Virus record (IMG/VR): IMGVR_UViG_3300035660_000003
Location: 1-22,260 of that record
Length of the DNA: 22,260 bases
From: a virus
Lineage: Duplodnaviria > Heunggongvirae > Uroviricota > Caudoviricetes
Strand: one strand, 5' to 3'
This document shows, in pieces, positions 14,535-19,923 of the stretch. The notes below the pieces were generated by a model, which was not told the DNA's origin, did no database searches, and was given only the letters and a program-made list of their open reading frames with translations. Within the stretch, counting starts at the first letter, position 1, and every line of letters starts with the position of its first letter. Made by a program: the position numbers and the translations under genes.

Positions 14535-15526
14535 TTCTCTTCAACGCTTACGAGTTTCTCTGGAACTTTTGGATTGAATCCTATATTTGTGACACACAGT
14601 CTATGAACTTTCATGTATTCGTCTTTGGTGAATCCGAAAGGATAACTTCCGCCCCAGAATTGTAGTCGTCCATATTCATCCATCAACATCATTGCTCCGC
14701 CGAGACTTGGTTGAAACTTAAAGAAGTATTTAATCGTTGCTTTATATGGTGTGTGAGCGAGCCAACATGGAAGTTGATAAGCGTGTTTTCCACTATGGTC
14801 AACATGAAGTGTATGATGTAAATGAGCACGAATAATAGCATCTATTGGTAATGTGGTGTGACTGGCTTCGGATTCTAATGACCAATTTATGTCACGACTC
14901 AATAATGTGGCTGGATAAACCAAAGCAGTAGCGGCTTCATGTGCTATGAATAACCTTCGAGTTCTATCCATACCAGTTAATGCATCTTTTCCACCAAAAA
15001 GTTCAACATATGCTACATCTCTCATATACTTTGCCGTGATTCCAAGAGCCTTTAAACGTTCGACCAATTCTTCATGATGGTCGGCTTCTCCCTTACGACT
15101 TTCATGGTAAGGCGTTCCAGACCAGACTAAGAATATTGGTTTCTTATCGCAACCTTCCCAGACCTCTTGAAGTAATACTGTTGCCATCTTTACTTGGTCA
15201 CTTTTATCAATAACACTTATGAATGCTCCTGCTTCTGCTGGATTCGAACCAGCAATTGCATCACCGACAATGAGTATATATTGAACGGCATATTTCTTGA
15301 AAAGTTCAATGTTTCGTTTCCATAAAATTCTAAGATATTTCTGAATCTTATTGGGTTTGATTATTGTTTCTTCTTTGGTTTCAAACTCTTCTGGACAAAT
15401 ACCTCTTGAAGCTCCACAATGCATATCTGGCAGAAATCCGACTCTGATTGGAAAGATACTCGTAATAACCAAATCGTCTCCTTCAATAGTCATTATTTCT
15501 TTATCTAATTTGGGTTTCTTAACCAT
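14522..15526 (-). CDS. Calcineurin-like metallophosphoesterase
   Basis: Five metal-binding motifs: LPDMHCG, VGDAIAG, SGTPYHE, IAHE, RAHLHH. Start moved from GTG 15535 (part of the GTGAT SD) to ATG 15526. Confidence 0.85.
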   Translation of the reverse strand: MVKKPKLDKEIMTIEGDDLVITSIFPIRVGFLPDMHCGASRGICPEEFETKEETIIKPNKIQKYLRILWKRNIELFKKYAVQYILIVGDAIAGSNPAEAGAFISVIDKSDQVKMATVLLQEVWEGCDKKPIFLVWSGTPYHESRKGEADHHEELVERLKALGITAKYMRDVAYVELFGGKDALTGMDRTRRLFIAHEAATALVYPATLLSRDINWSLESEASHTTLPIDAIIRAHLHHTLHVDHSGKHAYQLPCWLAHTPYKATIKYFFKFQPSLGGAMMLMDEYGRLQFWGGSYPFGFTKDEYMKVHRLCVTNIGFNPKVPEKLVSVEEKCLS

Positions 15527-15560
15527 TCTAATCACTTTGAATATTCTGTGGCATTCGTCC

Positions 15561-15576
15561 TATTTAAAGGTTTCGC
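15561..15576 (-). promoter_or_regulatory. BRE+TATA promoter GCGAAACCTTTAAATA
   Basis: Consensus match, 35 nt upstream of the ATG at 15526. Confidence 0.7.
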
Positions 15577-15592
15577 CTGACTTTTCCATTGT

Positions 15593-15881
15593 TTAATCAA
15601 TTGATTAATCTTTGGGCAAACGCTCAGTTTCGTGCTTAATCAGTTGATTAATCTTTTCGACGGTTTTTCGTCACGAGTCTTCGTATGGATTTTATTGGAT
15701 TTGACATATGTTAAAAAATGGTCGAACAACTACTTCGAACTTAATCAGTTGATTAAGTTTTTCGGTAGATTTCGTATTAGGCAAAATAATTAAACATCCA
15801 ATATTGGTAATAAAATGCCAAAAGATTCAACCGAAAGACTTATACGGACAAATTCGCTAGAATGTTTAATCAATTGATTAA
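15593..15881. repeat. Four copies of the 16-bp palindrome TTAATCA(A/G)TTGATTAA in non-coding DNA
   Basis: Copies at 15593-15608 (perfect), 15636-15651 (A>G), 15741-15756 (A>G) and 15866-15881 (perfect). Confidence 0.95.
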
Positions 15882-16037
15882 TCCGACATAACATTTAAAT
15901 ATGAGTCTGCCCACTTTAATCATGGTGTTCTCAAACATGAATTATAACAAAACAATCAAAAATTCTGACTATATTACATCTGAAATGGTGTGGGTTTGGC
16001 TATTGATGGAAGGTCAACGAAGAAGACCGCTTTAATT

Positions 16038-16343
16038 TTAAAATAATTTTCTTTGAGTCACTTCGTCTTCAACGAGCATTTGACCGAGGCTTTTTGGTCT
16101 CAATTGTTTAATGTTTTCGATGATGCTCCATTCTGATGTTCCTTCGACAGGTTTAATCCATCCATTGATATTCATGATTCCCCAATACTTGTCCTTTGTT
16201 CTTGAGTCATTTCCAATTGCCTGATAATACGGAGTCATTTCAAATTCGAATTTGGTGGCAGATTTACGGTTATTTTGTTCTAGCCAATTTTTTAGTCCAC
16301 AAGCCAACTGCCAAGCCTTATAGTTACTGTTCAATTTTCTCAC
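16038..16343 (-). CDS. Putative winged-helix DNA-binding protein
   Basis: Helix, helix, then DSRTKDKYWGIMNINGWI and a beta-hairpin KPVEGTSEWSI, resembling D.RT..KY...L...G.I wHTH endings. The start may be TTG 16334 (GGTGA SD). Confidence 0.55.
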   Translation of the reverse strand: MRKLNSNYKAWQLACGLKNWLEQNNRKSATKFEFEMTPYYQAIGNDSRTKDKYWGIMNINGWIKPVEGTSEWSIIENIKQLRPKSLGQMLVEDEVTQRKLF

Positions 16344-16473
16344 CTGTCATAGTGAAACCACAATGATTGCATCGGTAACGTCTTTTTCTCCCTTGGAGTG
16401 TGCCTATGTATCCTAATTTCTGCATTCGTTCACTGCATTTGGAACATAATGGATTATCTAAATTTGGTTTCAT
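16324..16473 (-). CDS. 49-aa C2C2 zinc-ribbon protein (not in ORF track)
   Basis: MKPNLDNPLCSKCSERMQKLGYIGTLQGEKRRYRCNHCGFTMTGEKIEQ; GTGATTAAA SD; TATA 30 nt upstream. Confidence 0.8.
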   Translation of the reverse strand: MKPNLDNPLCSKCSERMQKLGYIGTLQGRKRRYRCNHCGFTMTGEKIEQ

Positions 16474-16503
16474 TTTAATCACTAGAGAAGATACACACAC
16501 TCA

Positions 16504-16519
16504 TATTTAAAGATTATGG
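16504..16519 (-). promoter_or_regulatory. BRE+TATA promoter CCATAATCTTTAAATA for the Zn-ribbon/wHTH pair
   Basis: Consensus match with appropriate spacing to the ATG at 16473. Confidence 0.7.
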
Positions 16520-16530
16520 TTTTGCCATCC

Positions 16531-16812
16531 TTTTTTAAAAAATTTTTGTGCGTGTGCAACATTTCAAATGAGCACGTTCGAACGAACGACAAGTAGAGTA
16601 GTCTCATTCGTTGCACTCACAGTAGAGACTCATTCGCACACAGAGACTCATGCACAGACTCATACACTCATACTCATTCATATATACAGCATAGCATAAC
16701 ACAGTCGCACAGCACAGCACAGACGAATTAAAAAGAACACATACACAATCACTAAAGTTCTACACGCACACGCAAACATCGCATAGCACACAACATAGCA
16801 CAGCACAGCCGA
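16531..16812. repeat. Non-coding C/A-skewed tract with nested CTCAT repeats and GCACA/GCATA pentamer runs
   Basis: T6A6 palindrome 16531-16542; CTCAT at 16603, 16629, 16647, 16659, 16667, 16673; (GCACA)3 at 16707-16721; (GCACA)2 at 16798-16807. Confidence 0.85.
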
Positions 16813-16823
16813 CTACAATCACA

Positions 16824-16839
16824 CCGCAAAGTTTAAATA
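16824..16839 (+). promoter_or_regulatory. BRE+TATA promoter CCGCAAAGTTTAAATA
   Basis: Near-perfect window consensus, 26 nt before the ATG at 16866 (probably a leaderless transcript). Confidence 0.75.
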
Positions 16840-16865
16840 TCACAATCTCATAACAATAATAACAG

Positions 16866-17141
16866 ATGAAACCAATGCGACATCTCAAATTTAAATTTAT
16901 GTTACCTACAATATATGGCGGGATATTCTACCATCAAGAGAAGACCATATACATTTATGCCATAAATCTTCCCAAAGAGACTGAAGCAACCTTCGTTGAT
17001 GAGATTGAACAGTTAATCACTCATGAAGTGCTTCATGCCATTGTTTTAAAAGTTACAGGTTCAAGAACTGCTAATAAAATGGACAAAATATTCAAGAAAG
17101 TTTGGCATTGGGATGTAGAAGTATATAATCAACTCTATTAA
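16866..17141 (+). CDS. Minimal HExxH zincin-like metallopeptidase
   Basis: G.FYHQEKTIYI strands followed by the helix LITHEVLHAI. Confidence 0.65.
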   Translation: MKPMRHLKFKFMLPTIYGGIFYHQEKTIYIYAINLPKETEATFVDEIEQLITHEVLHAIVLKVTGSRTANKMDKIFKKVWHWDVEVYNQLY

Positions 17142-17180
17142 AAGATGGAAAGAATTTTTGTTGAATTTGATTAGTTCCGA

Positions 17181-17618
17181 TTACGGACTTACTATTTCTA
17201 CGTCTATTGACCAGCCAGTTCCTTGACCGCTTGCTTCTTCACCTATGATGTCATCTGGTCCACCTGTTCGAGGTCTCCAACGATATAAACGACAACCAGT
17301 TATCGTTACACTTGTATTTGCGATTGGAACACCAGCATTAGTAATCAAACTACCTTTTAGAGTAAATTCCTCTTCACTCTGGAATAAGTCTAAGAGTAAA
17401 TCTTCCAGATAAGAGTCAGCATAGAACCATCTTGTCAAAGTGAATGTTACAGTCTTGCTTCCAGCACTATGTTTTCTAGTTCGAGACCCATAAACTGGTT
17501 CTGCTCCGCCTTCGTAGCCAAGGTCAATGTCTAATCCTTCACAAACGCCAATAGTATGGTCTCCGTTTGTATCGGTAATCACTATTACCAAATTCGTTGC
17601 TCGATATGGTCCACCCAT
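17181..17618 (-). CDS. Tail tube protein
   Basis: 145 aa, beta-rich: IG..EG.DI...E..VYG.....AG.K.V.FTL.R.F...ITITGC......G..DDII.EE..G. Own promoter near 17660-17680. Confidence 0.7.
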   Translation of the reverse strand: MGGPYRATNLVIVITDTNGDHTIGVCEGLDIDLGYEGGAEPVYGSRTRKHSAGSKTVTFTLTRWFYADSYLEDLLLDLFQSEEEFTLKGSLITNAGVPIANTSVTITGCRLYRWRPRTGGPDDIIGEEASGQGTGWSIDVEIVSP

Positions 17619-17707
17619 ATTTTATCATCTCTTCTTTTAGTGATTGGAAGAATAGCGTTTTTTAGTATTTAAGGTTATTCCTAAAGATTATCAATTTCTG
17701 TTAATCG

Positions 17708-17723
17708 CCATAAGATTTAAATA
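17708..17723 (+). promoter_or_regulatory. BRE+TATA promoter CCATAAGATTTAAATA for the terminase operon
   Basis: Consensus match; GGTGA SD before the ATG at 17766. Confidence 0.7.
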
Positions 17724-17765
17724 CTCTGGCTGTTGTTATTACATTATAACTATGGTGAGTCTTGA

Positions 17766-18224
17766 ATGGTAGTAGCTAGAATAATAAACTGGAAAGTTGG
17801 GGACAATGAAAAAATTATTTTAATGGTTCAAATCGAAATGGAAGGTCAACCCCCAGTAGATATTGAAGCAGAATTGCCATTGGAAGTAGCCAAAGAAATT
17901 GTTACGGAAATGCCCCCATCAGAAGCCACTAGAATCCACGAATTAATTGATTTAATTCACGCTAAAATCACGGAACGAATTTTAACAGTTGAAGCAATTG
18001 CTAAGGAACTTGAAGACCTCAAAACAGAAAATGAAGGTGCAGTTACGGCTCTAAAGGGTGCGACTAAATCATTGGAAATTAAAAAATGGGTTGGAATCAT
18101 CGGAGCTCTTACAACTCGTAAGCAGTTGGTCACGGAAAGAAGACATACTATTAGATTATTAATCAACGAAGAAGCCAATTTGCGAGTTCAACTAAGAGAA
18201 ATACAATTAGGAAAGCGGTCATAA
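17766..18224 (+). CDS. Helical protein directly upstream of TerL; candidate terminase small subunit
   Basis: Position, size and oligomerisation-like helices only; no HTH recognised. Confidence 0.45.
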   Translation: MVVARIINWKVGDNEKIILMVQIEMEGQPPVDIEAELPLEVAKEIVTEMPPSEATRIHELIDLIHAKITERILTVEAIAKELEDLKTENEGAVTALKGATKSLEIKKWVGIIGALTTRKQLVTERRHTIRLLINEEANLRVQLREIQLGKRS

Positions 18225-18225
18225 A

Positions 18226-19923
18226 ATGCCTAAAACACGTTCAGTTTACGACGAAGAATTAAAAATGATGGAAAAATTTAGAGGCAATCCGCAATTAACA
18301 AGAGAATATTCAGAATGGCGAAGAAAATGGCGGTTGGCAGGTCCAGTAAGATTTGCTCTCGAAGTCCTTCAAATAGACCCAAATACTGGAAATCATCTCG
18401 AACTTTCAGGAGACCAAATAGAATTTCTGGAAGATTTGGCTTCTGGAAGAGTTAGATTAGCAGTTATAGTGGCTGGTCGTGGTGCAGGTAAAACGTTTGT
18501 TTTGGCTGTTTATGTAATGTGGCGAGTTTTTACACATGAAAATTGGCATATTGCCTGTATGGGTGGTTCGAGTGAACAGTCTGATAAGATTCATGCATTT
18601 ATTACGGGATGGATTAATAATAGTGATGATTTGAAGAAATATAAGTTGAAACTCATTGAGAAGGAAGTCAAAAGTTTAGCCAATGGTTCTGCAACATTTC
18701 ATGCTTGCTCAGGCACATCAATTCGAGGTCCACATACTCACGATGTTATTATAGATGAAGAAGCCTCTGGTGAAGAGGCGGGCGGAACAAGATTCATCAG
18801 AGCGGCTATTTGGGAAGTTTCAACCAGTCCTGATATTCACATCATAAAGGCTTCAACTGCTCACTTTATTCATGGCGATTTCATTCAAACTTGGAATAAC
18901 GCTGAAAAACTTGGTTACAAACGTTATAGATGGGCGATAGTGAGACACACATCTGGAGAAAAAGACCCATATAAAATTTACACAGATATGAATCCCAAAA
19001 ACTGGTTGTCAAACCTTCCTTGGATGCCAGACAGAAATGTTCCAATTCTTAGAAGCGATAAATCAAATGATGAGTGGTTAGTCGAGGCTCTCGGCGGAAT
19101 AAGCATTTCATCAGGTCTAGTATTTAATCCAAACGATGTTGATTCATGTGTGTGCACATATTGTCCTGACCACGATTTACAATGCATACCATATAAAGAA
19201 GGATATTGTCCAATGGTTCAATCATTTCTTCAATTATGTGGTGTGCCTGAAGAAATGATTCCCGTATCCAATAGATTGGCATTGATGCAATTTGTTAAAG
19301 AAAGAATTATGGGAATAGATTGGGGCGAAGCATCTCCATGTGCTTATTCAGCCGTCGGCAGATTCCGAGATTTTATCTTTGTTTTAATTAGTCAGGAATT
19401 TGTTGGACAAACTGATTCGGAGAAAATCCATTTTGCTTCTGAATTAGCAAAAAATCTTCAAATTGAGATTATCCGTCCAGACCCAAGAGAATGGGCTTAC
19501 AATAATGCCTTGTCAAATTTGGGTTTTGCCGTTCATAAGCTATTCAATGTTGAAGGTGGAAAAGATAAAACTCAATATGTTTATACGGTTAAACGATATA
19601 TTGAACGTCATATGATTGTCATTCCATGTGCTTTTGAGGATTTAATTAGAAGTCTTAAACAATTGTCTTATGATGAACATGGAGTTATTCGCAAACAAGA
19701 CGACCATAGTTTTGATTCTCTTTTATACGCTATGAGTTATTATGGAGAAGTTGTTGGACATTCACCATTTTGGCGGGCAATGCAAAAACTGACTGATACA
19801 TATACTTATGAACTTACAGAAGATGATACTCAAACCAAAAAAGAAATAAAAACAAGTGAACAAGACCAAAGTGACCCATGGTCCAAAGTATGGGGCGGGT
19901 TCGATTTGTGGGGGAAAAAGTAA
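18226..19923 (+). CDS. terL: Terminase large subunit
   Basis: Q motif (LSGDQ), Walker A AGRGAGKT, Walker B VIIDEE, nuclease GIDWG and DDHSFDSLLY. Confidence 0.95.
   Translation: MPKTRSVYDEELKMMEKFRGNPQLTREYSEWRRKWRLAGPVRFALEVLQIDPNTGNHLELSGDQIEFLEDLASGRVRLAVIVAGRGAGKTFVLAVYVMWRVFTHENWHIACMGGSSEQSDKIHAFITGWINNSDDLKKYKLKLIEKEVKSLANGSATFHACSGTSIRGPHTHDVIIDEEASGEEAGGTRFIRAAIWEVSTSPDIHIIKASTAHFIHGDFIQTWNNAEKLGYKRYRWAIVRHTSGEKDPYKIYTDMNPKNWLSNLPWMPDRNVPILRSDKSNDEWLVEALGGISISSGLVFNPNDVDSCVCTYCPDHDLQCIPYKEGYCPMVQSFLQLCGVPEEMIPVSNRLALMQFVKERIMGIDWGEASPCAYSAVGRFRDFIFVLISQEFVGQTDSEKIHFASELAKNLQIEIIRPDPREWAYNNALSNLGFAVHKLFNVEGGKDKTQYVYTVKRYIERHMIVIPCAFEDLIRSLKQLSYDEHGVIRKQDDHSFDSLLYAMSYYGEVVGHSPFWRAMQKLTDTYTYELTEDDTQTKKEIKTSEQDQSDPWSKVWGGFDLWGKK

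What the first reader, a model, noticed from the sequence alone, without database searches (positions are those of the whole stretch)
16593..16678. Telescoping repeat: each unit is a nested deletion of the previous one
Seen: GTAGAGTAGTCTCATTCGTTGCACTCACA (29 nt) / GTAGAGACTCATTCGCACACA (21) / GAGACTCATGCACA (14) / GACTCATACA (10) / CTCATA (6) / CTCATT (6). CTCAT core spacings shrink 26, 18, 12, 8, 6, a strikingly regular decay. Ordinary tandem duplication gives constant periods. Inference: a product of iterative template slippage or terminal repair at a genome end or replication start, or a graded-affinity loading ramp for a DNA-binding protein. I know no named element of this form.
Basis: partly seen in the sequence, partly recalled or inferred. 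Interest (0 to 1): 0.75.

Follow-up and report, generated by a model that had tools for sequence, protein, structure and literature searches.

The report
Conserved shrinking repeat between viral promoters
In a 112-kb archaeal virus, a 90-base stretch repeats one short motif at steadily shrinking intervals; it is real, is almost unchanged in a related virus, and is probably a protein docking site between two back-to-back promoters, but its function is untested.

Summary
CTCAT recurs at spacings of 26, 18, 12, 8 and 6 nt, then TCAT at 4 and AT at 2. Self-match offsets fall in 12 steps from 29 to 2. This amounts to a roughly 2/3 contraction onto a fixed point near 16685.

It is not an assembly artefact. 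An independently assembled relative (L140, TerL 89% identical) carries the same tract with 1 change in 86 nt. The flanking spacer differs at 34 of 279 positions (Fisher p=0.0012). More distant relatives have no such tract.

The tract lies in a 320-nt spacer between two divergent archaeal BRE/TATA promoters, where no transcription is predicted. It is not coding, because the overlapping 43-aa ORF is broken in L140. It shows no RNA structure and no Rfam match.

The units differ almost only by 2-4-nt indels at micro-repeats. That fits origin in a burst of serial slippage followed by conservation.

My best reading (about 0.4) is a lineage-specific, conserved, cis-acting protein-binding array. Rival readings are a neutral slippage fossil, an origin element and a packaging or terminus signal.

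At the scale of the whole scan, the geometry alone could arise by chance. The case for function rests on the conservation, which comes from one pairwise comparison.

The parts
16593..16621 (+). Unit 1 (29 nt), core TCTCAT; the longest unit
   Evidence: Self-match offsets 29, 26, 23 and 21 to unit 2. Holds the only substitution versus L140 (T16612C).
16622..16642 (+). Unit 2 (21 nt): GTAGAG-ACTCAT-TCGCACACA
   Evidence: offsets 18, 16 and 14 to unit 3. Identical in L140.
16643..16656 (+). Unit 3 (14 nt)
   Evidence: offset 12. Identical in L140.
16657..16666 (+). Unit 4 (10 nt)
   Evidence: exact 8-nt duplication ACTCATAC x2. Identical in L140.
16667..16678 (+). Units 5 and 6 (6 + 6 nt): CTCATA, CTCATT
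   Evidence: offset 6. Identical in L140.
16678..16686 (+). Convergence point: TCAT (spacing 4), then ATATATA (period 2)
   Evidence: Fitted fixed point of the roughly 2/3 contraction is near 16685.
16590..16691 (.). Conserved block holding the whole tract: one substitution versus L140
   Evidence: Counted from 16579, the block has 1 difference in 113 nt. The flanking spacer has 34 in 279.
16575..16589 (.). 10-bp palindrome CGTTCGAACG overlapping a (CGAA)n micro-repeat; L140 has one more CGAA
   Evidence: This indel breaks the 43-aa ORF 16568-16699 in L140.
16531..16547 (.). AT-only tract T6A6T5, left of the repeat
   Evidence: Length varies in L140.
16504..16519 (-). BRE/TATA promoter for the leftward Zn-ribbon/101-aa operon (ATG at 16473); an ACTCAT copy (16499-16504) abuts the TATA box
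   Evidence: PWM score 20.4. Conserved in L140.
16824..16839 (+). BRE/TATA promoter for the rightward 91-aa HExxH gene
   Evidence: PWM score 20.1.
16692..16823 (+). Rest of the C+A-rich spacer, with (GCACA)n and 17-nt repeats; variable in L140
   Evidence: Most CA-rich 100-nt stretches of the genome.. 12% differences and slippage indels versus L140.

Best explanation
The tract is a lineage-specific, cis-acting DNA element in the spacer between two back-to-back archaeal promoters, where no transcription is predicted. It is most likely an array of docking sites (core ACTCAT) for a small DNA-binding protein that controls one or both promoters.

It probably arose in one burst of serial replication slippage. 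Each round re-copied the previous unit and lost 2-4-nt pieces at micro-repeats. That would give units of about two thirds the previous length, converging on an ATATATA point. Since then it has been kept almost base for base.

Shown: the pattern, its position between the promoters, its non-coding nature, the slippage-type differences between units, and its low divergence from one relative. Inferred: protein binding, and which protein binds. Whether the shrinking spacing itself matters is unknown.
For: The genome uses BRE/TATA promoters with the ATG about 40 nt downstream. Only two strong ones lie in this spacer, and they point away from the tract.

Against L140 the tract has 1 difference in 86 nt. 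The flanking spacer has 34 in 279 (Fisher p=0.0012), and local 4-fold sites differ by 7-12%. It is one of five intervals of 110-nt windows with 2 or fewer differences in 15.6 kb aligned, where the mean is 16.6.

The flanking micro-repeats (CGAA)n and (GCACA)n changed copy number, but the tract did not.

Units differ by indels only, with one substitution. L140 shows TCG-TCG against TCG.

A further ACTCAT copy, in a 12-nt match to units 4 and 5, abuts the leftward TATA box and is conserved.

A Zn-ribbon gene lies next door.

Serial slippage is an established mutational model (PMC2583991).
Against: Conservation rests on a single pairwise comparison. The region from 15.5 to 16.9 kb is also less diverged as a whole.

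Relatives at 56-66% identity have no such tract, so it is not needed by the virus family.

ACTCAT is not enriched elsewhere in the genome.

The copies are direct and lack dyad symmetry. Spacings of 6-8 bp are tight for most DNA-binding domains.

No binder has been identified. The 101-aa neighbour gave a low-confidence model that is not an obvious winged helix.

The rightmost 21 nt recur in an unrelated bacterial phage, which shows that this part can arise by mutation alone.
Confidence: 0.4

Rival explanations
1. Neutral fossil. The tract is a chance-ordered patchwork of slippage duplications and deletions in unconstrained CA-rich spacer DNA. Its near-identity in L140 is luck, or reflects a recently shared short segment.
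For: The whole spacer is low-complexity and is actively slipping. A rough tail extrapolation of the chirp statistic predicts many such cases across a multi-Gb scan. Part of the pattern recurs in an unrelated bacterial phage. A control hexamer gives similar arrays. The tract is absent from distant relatives. Local neutral divergence is low, at 7-12%.
Against: The tract has 1 difference in 86 nt against 34 in 279 in the same spacer (p=0.0012). Binomial P is 0.001-0.015 at rates of 7-10%. Units lack substitutions, yet the array pre-dates the split from L140.
Confidence: 0.25
2. Replication origin element. The repeats would be initiator-loading sites beside an AT-rich unwinding tract, at the point where transcription diverges.
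For: The T6A6T5 tract, a 10-bp palindrome and the direct repeats lie in that order at a strand-switch point. The block is conserved.
Against: No Cdc6/Orc1 C-terminal domain (Pfam Cdc6_C) was found. MCM and PolB lie about 31 kb away. There are no ORB-like G-strings or regular spacing. The AT tract itself varies in L140. Skew follows gene strand and is uninformative.
Confidence: 0.15
3. Packaging or terminus signal: a pac site, or an array next to a terminal repeat as in T7.
For: The tract lies 1.1-1.6 kb upstream of the putative terS-terL pair. Relatives' contigs tend to break 0.2-1.5 kb upstream of terS. T7 has a C/A-rich array of short repeats beside its terminal repeat and divergent promoters.
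Against: Two assemblies read through the tract. The contig breaks are scattered over about 660 nt to the right of the tract, not at it. terS-terL has its own promoter at 17716, and two genes lie between. The 127-nt end repeat of the record lies inside an ORF (a frame open across the contig start), so it is more likely an assembly overlap than a physical terminal repeat. The T7 array has a constant 13-nt period.
Confidence: 0.07
4. Transcribed product: a small RNA, a leader, or a Thr/His-rich or Cys-rich mini-peptide.
For: A 43-aa ORF (16568-16699) and a 19-25-aa minus-strand ORF are open in the window.
Against: The 43-aa ORF stops after 10 codons in L140. There is no promoter-like site upstream on either strand. 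Folding z-scores are -0.6 and -0.7. There is no Rfam match.
Confidence: 0.03

Closest known systems
Iterons and direct-repeat arrays of plasmid and phage origins and control regions
   Same: Several direct copies of a short motif in a non-coding spacer, beside an AT-rich tract and next to small regulator genes. Conserved as a block.
   Different: Iterons have one unit length and a regular spacing. Here the unit shrinks from 29 to 2 nt, and no initiator gene is adjacent.
Complex tandem duplications made by serial replication slippage (Chen et al. 2005, as reviewed in PMC2583991)
   Same: Backward slips (duplication) and forward slips (deletion) at microhomologies in close succession explain the indel-only differences between units.
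   Different: Those are sporadic mutations in human genes. I did not find an ordered six- to seven-step shrinking series, nor its later conservation, in that review or in my literature searches.
T7 short-repeat array (SRL) beside the left terminal repeat
   Same: A C/A-rich array of short direct repeats in non-coding DNA between a leftward and rightward promoters.
   Different: T7's period is a constant 13 nt, and the array abuts a physical end. No end is shown here.
Operator clusters at archaeal BRE/TATA promoters, such as the 16-bp palindromes of this same virus
   Same: Repeated sites around divergent promoters. One ACTCAT copy touches a TATA box.
   Different: Those operators are palindromes spread over the genome. 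ACTCAT copies are direct, local and not enriched elsewhere.

Membership tests
Slippage-made tandem repeat (micro/minisatellite) | Head-to-tail copies of one unit | tested here: met
   Units abut with no spacer.
Slippage-made tandem repeat (micro/minisatellite) | Constant period | tested here: not met
   Offsets fall 29, 26, 23, 21, 18, 16, 14, 12, 8, 6, 4, 2. TRF reports only fragments.
Slippage-made tandem repeat (micro/minisatellite) | Copy-number change between close relatives | tested here: not met
   No indel in the tract versus L140, whereas the flanking (CGAA)n and (GCACA)n changed.
Replication-origin iterons | Regularly spaced repeats of one length | tested here: not met
Replication-origin iterons | Adjacent AT-rich unwinding tract | tested here: met
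   T6A6T5 at 16531-16547.
Replication-origin iterons | Initiator gene next to the repeats | tested here: inconclusive
   No Cdc6_C. MCM is at 97.7 kb and PolB at 99.6 kb. The neighbouring small proteins are of unknown function.
Replication-origin iterons | Origin activity | not testable with these tools
   Needs replication mapping.
Archaeal operator or upstream-activating array | Sites at or near BRE/TATA/TSS | tested here: inconclusive
   One ACTCAT copy abuts the leftward TATA box. The array itself lies 68 and 141 nt from the two TATA boxes.
Archaeal operator or upstream-activating array | Sites conserved in relatives | tested here: met
   L140 only. Absent in relatives at 56-66% identity.
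Archaeal operator or upstream-activating array | Cognate DNA-binding protein | tested here: inconclusive
   Zn-ribbon has weak Pfam hits. The 101-aa model has pLDDT 50 and is not a clear winged helix. Binding was not tested.
pac/cos or terminal-repeat-adjacent array | At a physical DNA end, or within or next to terS | tested here: inconclusive
   Both assemblies read through it. It lies 1.1 kb from the putative terS, with two genes between. No reads were available.
Small RNA or small ORF | Promoter, conserved frame or stable structure | tested here: not met

The most novel reading that the evidence does not exclude
The shrinking spacing is itself the working design. In one version, a log-periodic array of ACTCAT sites converges on a dense nucleation point, so that rising levels of a binding protein extend occupancy step by step towards the leftward promoter. 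This would be a rheostat that converts concentration into distance. In the other version, the tract is the retained landing pad left by reiterative, deletion-prone synthesis at a replication start.
Probability: 0.1. Interest if true: 0.8.

Novelty: new variant of a known kind. Interest (0 to 1): 0.45.

Why it matters
Repeat arrays that bind proteins are normally evenly spaced. A conserved array whose unit contracts by about one third at each step has, as far as I could find, no described counterpart.

If the geometry is functional, it would be a new way to encode graded occupancy in DNA. If it is only a preserved slippage scar, it is an unusually clean natural record of serial slippage in an archaeal virus.

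Either way it marks a conserved non-coding element in the control region of an uncultured 112-kb archaeal virus. The tract and its two flanking promoters are a short, well-defined piece that can be tested in vitro.

Tried and rejected
The contigs of the closest TerL and 101-aa homologues (P0001-P0003, P0117) therefore could not be fetched.
- Phage-database blastn found nothing.
- An exact 21-mer found nothing in IMG/VR.
- TerL as a single query, and as alignment A1, found no relatives in IMG/VR.
- My TerL motif pattern found only chance hits in IMG/VR.
It gave relatives whose contigs stop short of the tract (L079, L073) or are too distant (L116, L088, L080, L032, L085).
- My first genome contigs pattern had one N too many and found nothing. 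The corrected pattern found L140.
- A search of 100 relatives of the MAG G001 found no further copy.
- An attP reading is unlikely: no tyrosine integrase was found and there is no second copy in the MAG.
- My recollection that T7's end array has growing spacing was wrong. Its period is 13 nt throughout.
- A plain chain-length statistic was useless, because microsatellites and skewed composition give long chains. I replaced it with a length-weighted one.
- The structure model of the 101-aa neighbour was too poor for a fold search.

Full report
**What is there**

The window is the first 22,260 nt of a 112,412-nt virus record. Its 127-nt end repeat starts inside an ORF (a frame open across the contig start), so it looks like an assembly overlap of a circular contig.

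CTCAT starts at 16603, 16629, 16647, 16659, 16667 and 16673, giving spacings of 26, 18, 12, 8 and 6.

The spacers between cores are 21, 13, 7, 3 and 1 nt, and each is a subsequence of the one before. This is not seen in 20,000 shuffles. It occurs in 0.8% of trials that draw real substrings from the neighbouring CA-rich DNA.

Nearest self-match offsets fall in twelve steps: 29, 26, 23, 21, 18, 16, 14, 12, 8, 6, 4, 2. This is a contraction by about two thirds onto a fixed point near 16685.

**How unusual it is**

In the whole genome this is the only 5-mer run with five monotonic spacings and the only 4-mer run with six. On a length-weighted statistic the tract scores 71 of 93 nt. That is the top of 1.19 Mb of real DNA on both strands; the next best is 58, and the 99.9th percentile of chains with 6 or more steps is 57.

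A rough extrapolation of that tail gives about one such case per tens of Mb. A scan of several Gb would therefore meet many by chance, so the geometry alone does not prove design.

**Context**

The genome uses archaeal promoters. The motif CC(A/G)TAA(A/G)(A/G)-TTTA(A/T)ATA sits about 40 nt upstream of start codons at 29 sites, often with a GGTGA-like ribosome-binding site. The virus encodes MCM and a family-B polymerase.

In the 16474-16865 gap only two strong promoters score, and they point away from each other:
- A leftward promoter (TATA 16504-16511) drives a 49-aa Zn-ribbon gene and a 101-aa gene.
- A rightward promoter (TATA 16832-16839) drives a 91-aa HExxH protein.

The tract therefore lies in DNA that is not predicted to be transcribed, 68 nt from the left TATA box and 141 nt from the right one. 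To its left are a T6A6T5 tract and a 10-bp palindrome. To its right is the most C+A-rich DNA of the genome. The large terminase gene starts 1.5 kb to the right. The terS-terL pair has its own promoter at 17716.

**Relatives**

A TerL-motif scan of metagenomes found relatives whose contigs stop short of the tract or are distant. The same motif in genome contigs found L140, a 4.1-kb contig binned in an 'uncultured archaeon' MAG. Its TerL is 89% identical, and it spans the whole spacer.

In alignment A2 the tract is identical except for T16612C. Divergence from L140 by region is:

| Region | Differences | Source |
|---|---|---|
| Block 16579-16691 | 1 in 113 | |
| Rest of the same spacer | 34 in 279 (12%) | |
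| Local 4-fold sites (101-aa and Zn-ribbon genes) | 7-12% | |
| TerL 4-fold sites | 30% | |

Fisher's test gives p=0.0012 for the tract and 1e-4 for the block, each against the rest of the spacer.

Over 15.6 kb aligned to this relative, the mean is 16.6 differences per 110 nt. Only five intervals have 2 or fewer differences, and the tract is one of them.

The micro-repeats on either side, (CGAA)n and (GCACA)n, changed copy number, but the tract did not. This rules out misassembly and argues for constraint, though from a single comparison.

More distant relatives have no shrinking repeat:
- C5, in the same MAG, is about 66% identical in nucleotides (TerL about 56% in amino acids). It keeps a CA-rich run directly upstream of the rightward BRE/TATA, but no such repeat.
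- L116 (TerL 61% identical) has only a 120-nt spacer at this position.
- L088 (TerL 56% identical) has 617 nt of non-coding DNA upstream of terS, with no significant similarity to this spacer.

The element is therefore young and restricted to this lineage.

**What it is not**

- It is not coding. The 43-aa ORF over the tract stops after 10 codons in L140, because of the CGAA indel.
- It is not a structured RNA. Folding z-scores are -0.6 and -0.7, and there is no Rfam match.
- It is unlikely to be an attachment site. No tyrosine integrase was found and there is no second copy in the MAG.
- It is not shown to be a genome end. Two assemblies read through it.

**How it arose**

Adjacent units differ by 2-4-nt indels at micro-repeats such as (CA)n and (AG)n, with only one substitution. 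In L140, unit 1 has TCG-TCG where unit 2 has a single TCG. The number of indels per step falls with unit length (3, 3, 2, 1-2, 1, 1, 1).

This is what repeated re-copying of the last unit would give if the chance of a forward slip were fixed per base. That is the serial replication slippage model (PMC2583991). The lack of substitutions between units points to a burst. The near-identity with L140 points to preservation since then.

**What it does**

My best reading is a protein-binding array that acts on the flanking promoters. Supporting points are the conserved block, a further ACTCAT copy touching the leftward TATA box and a Zn-ribbon gene next door.

Several points weaken this reading:
- No binder is known, and the 101-aa neighbour gave only a pLDDT-50 model.
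- ACTCAT is not enriched elsewhere in the genome.
- The copies are direct repeats.
- The 12-8-6 part, including an identical 21-mer, occurs in an unrelated phage with bacterial-type ribosome-binding sites, between convergent genes.
- Control hexamers gave 0 and 3 hits, all of them microsatellites.

The rival readings are a neutral fossil, an origin element and a packaging signal. They are weighed in their own sections of this report.

**Comparison with known systems**

The nearest known kinds are iteron or operator arrays and slippage-made complex duplications. T7's short-repeat array beside its terminal repeat resembles the tract in composition and promoter context, but it has a constant 13-nt period. 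Literature searches and earlier notes from this scan gave no evenly contracting DNA repeat.

I file the tract as a new variant of a known kind. It is of moderate interest until more relatives or a footprint are available.

Noticed in passing
window 16866-16877; L140 (reverse strand): L140 has a 1-nt insertion after ATGAAA that puts a stop in that frame. The 91-aa HExxH gene therefore probably starts at the second ATG (16875), 43 nt from the TATA box.
   Followed up: partly
window 15500-19900 versus L140: Four-fold-site divergence from L140 rises from 7-12% (Zn-ribbon and 101-aa genes) to 15% (145-aa gene) and 30% (terS-like gene and TerL). The control region looks like a more recently shared module.
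   Followed up: partly
L079, L073, L032, L080, L085 (window equivalents about 16917-17581): Five of seven relatives' contigs that hold the TerL N-terminus end within the 91-aa/145-aa gene region, while extending 2-13 kb the other way. Something there breaks assemblies; I could not tell whether it is strain variation or an end.
   Followed up: partly
L172:330-361, L174:5922-5953: An unrelated phage with bacterial-type ribosome-binding sites carries ACTCAT at spacings of 12, 8 and 6, including the same 21-mer, between convergent genes just after a terminator-like hairpin.
   Followed up: partly
L171:3529-3970 (G001 contig C5): The 66%-identity relative has a long (CA)-rich run directly upstream of the equivalent BRE/TATA, plus a TAACT-rich repeat patch. 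A CA-rich upstream tract may be a shared feature of this promoter.
   Followed up: no
L080:1237-4821; P0044, P0063, P0077, P0100 and others: Several TerL homologues are 890-950 aa, or are split into three blocks at the DNA level. Some carry LAGLIDADG or intein Pfam hits, so inteins are common in this terminase family.
   Followed up: no
G001 and its relatives: The MAG that holds L140 also holds a second, more distant virus of the same family (contigs C5 and C176). The MAG and its 100 nearest relatives are 0.5-1.3 Mb, which suggests a small-genome archaeal host lineage. The link rests on binning only.
   Followed up: partly
L140:2744-2852: A run of N masks most of the 91-aa gene in this relative, so that gene could not be compared.
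   Followed up: no
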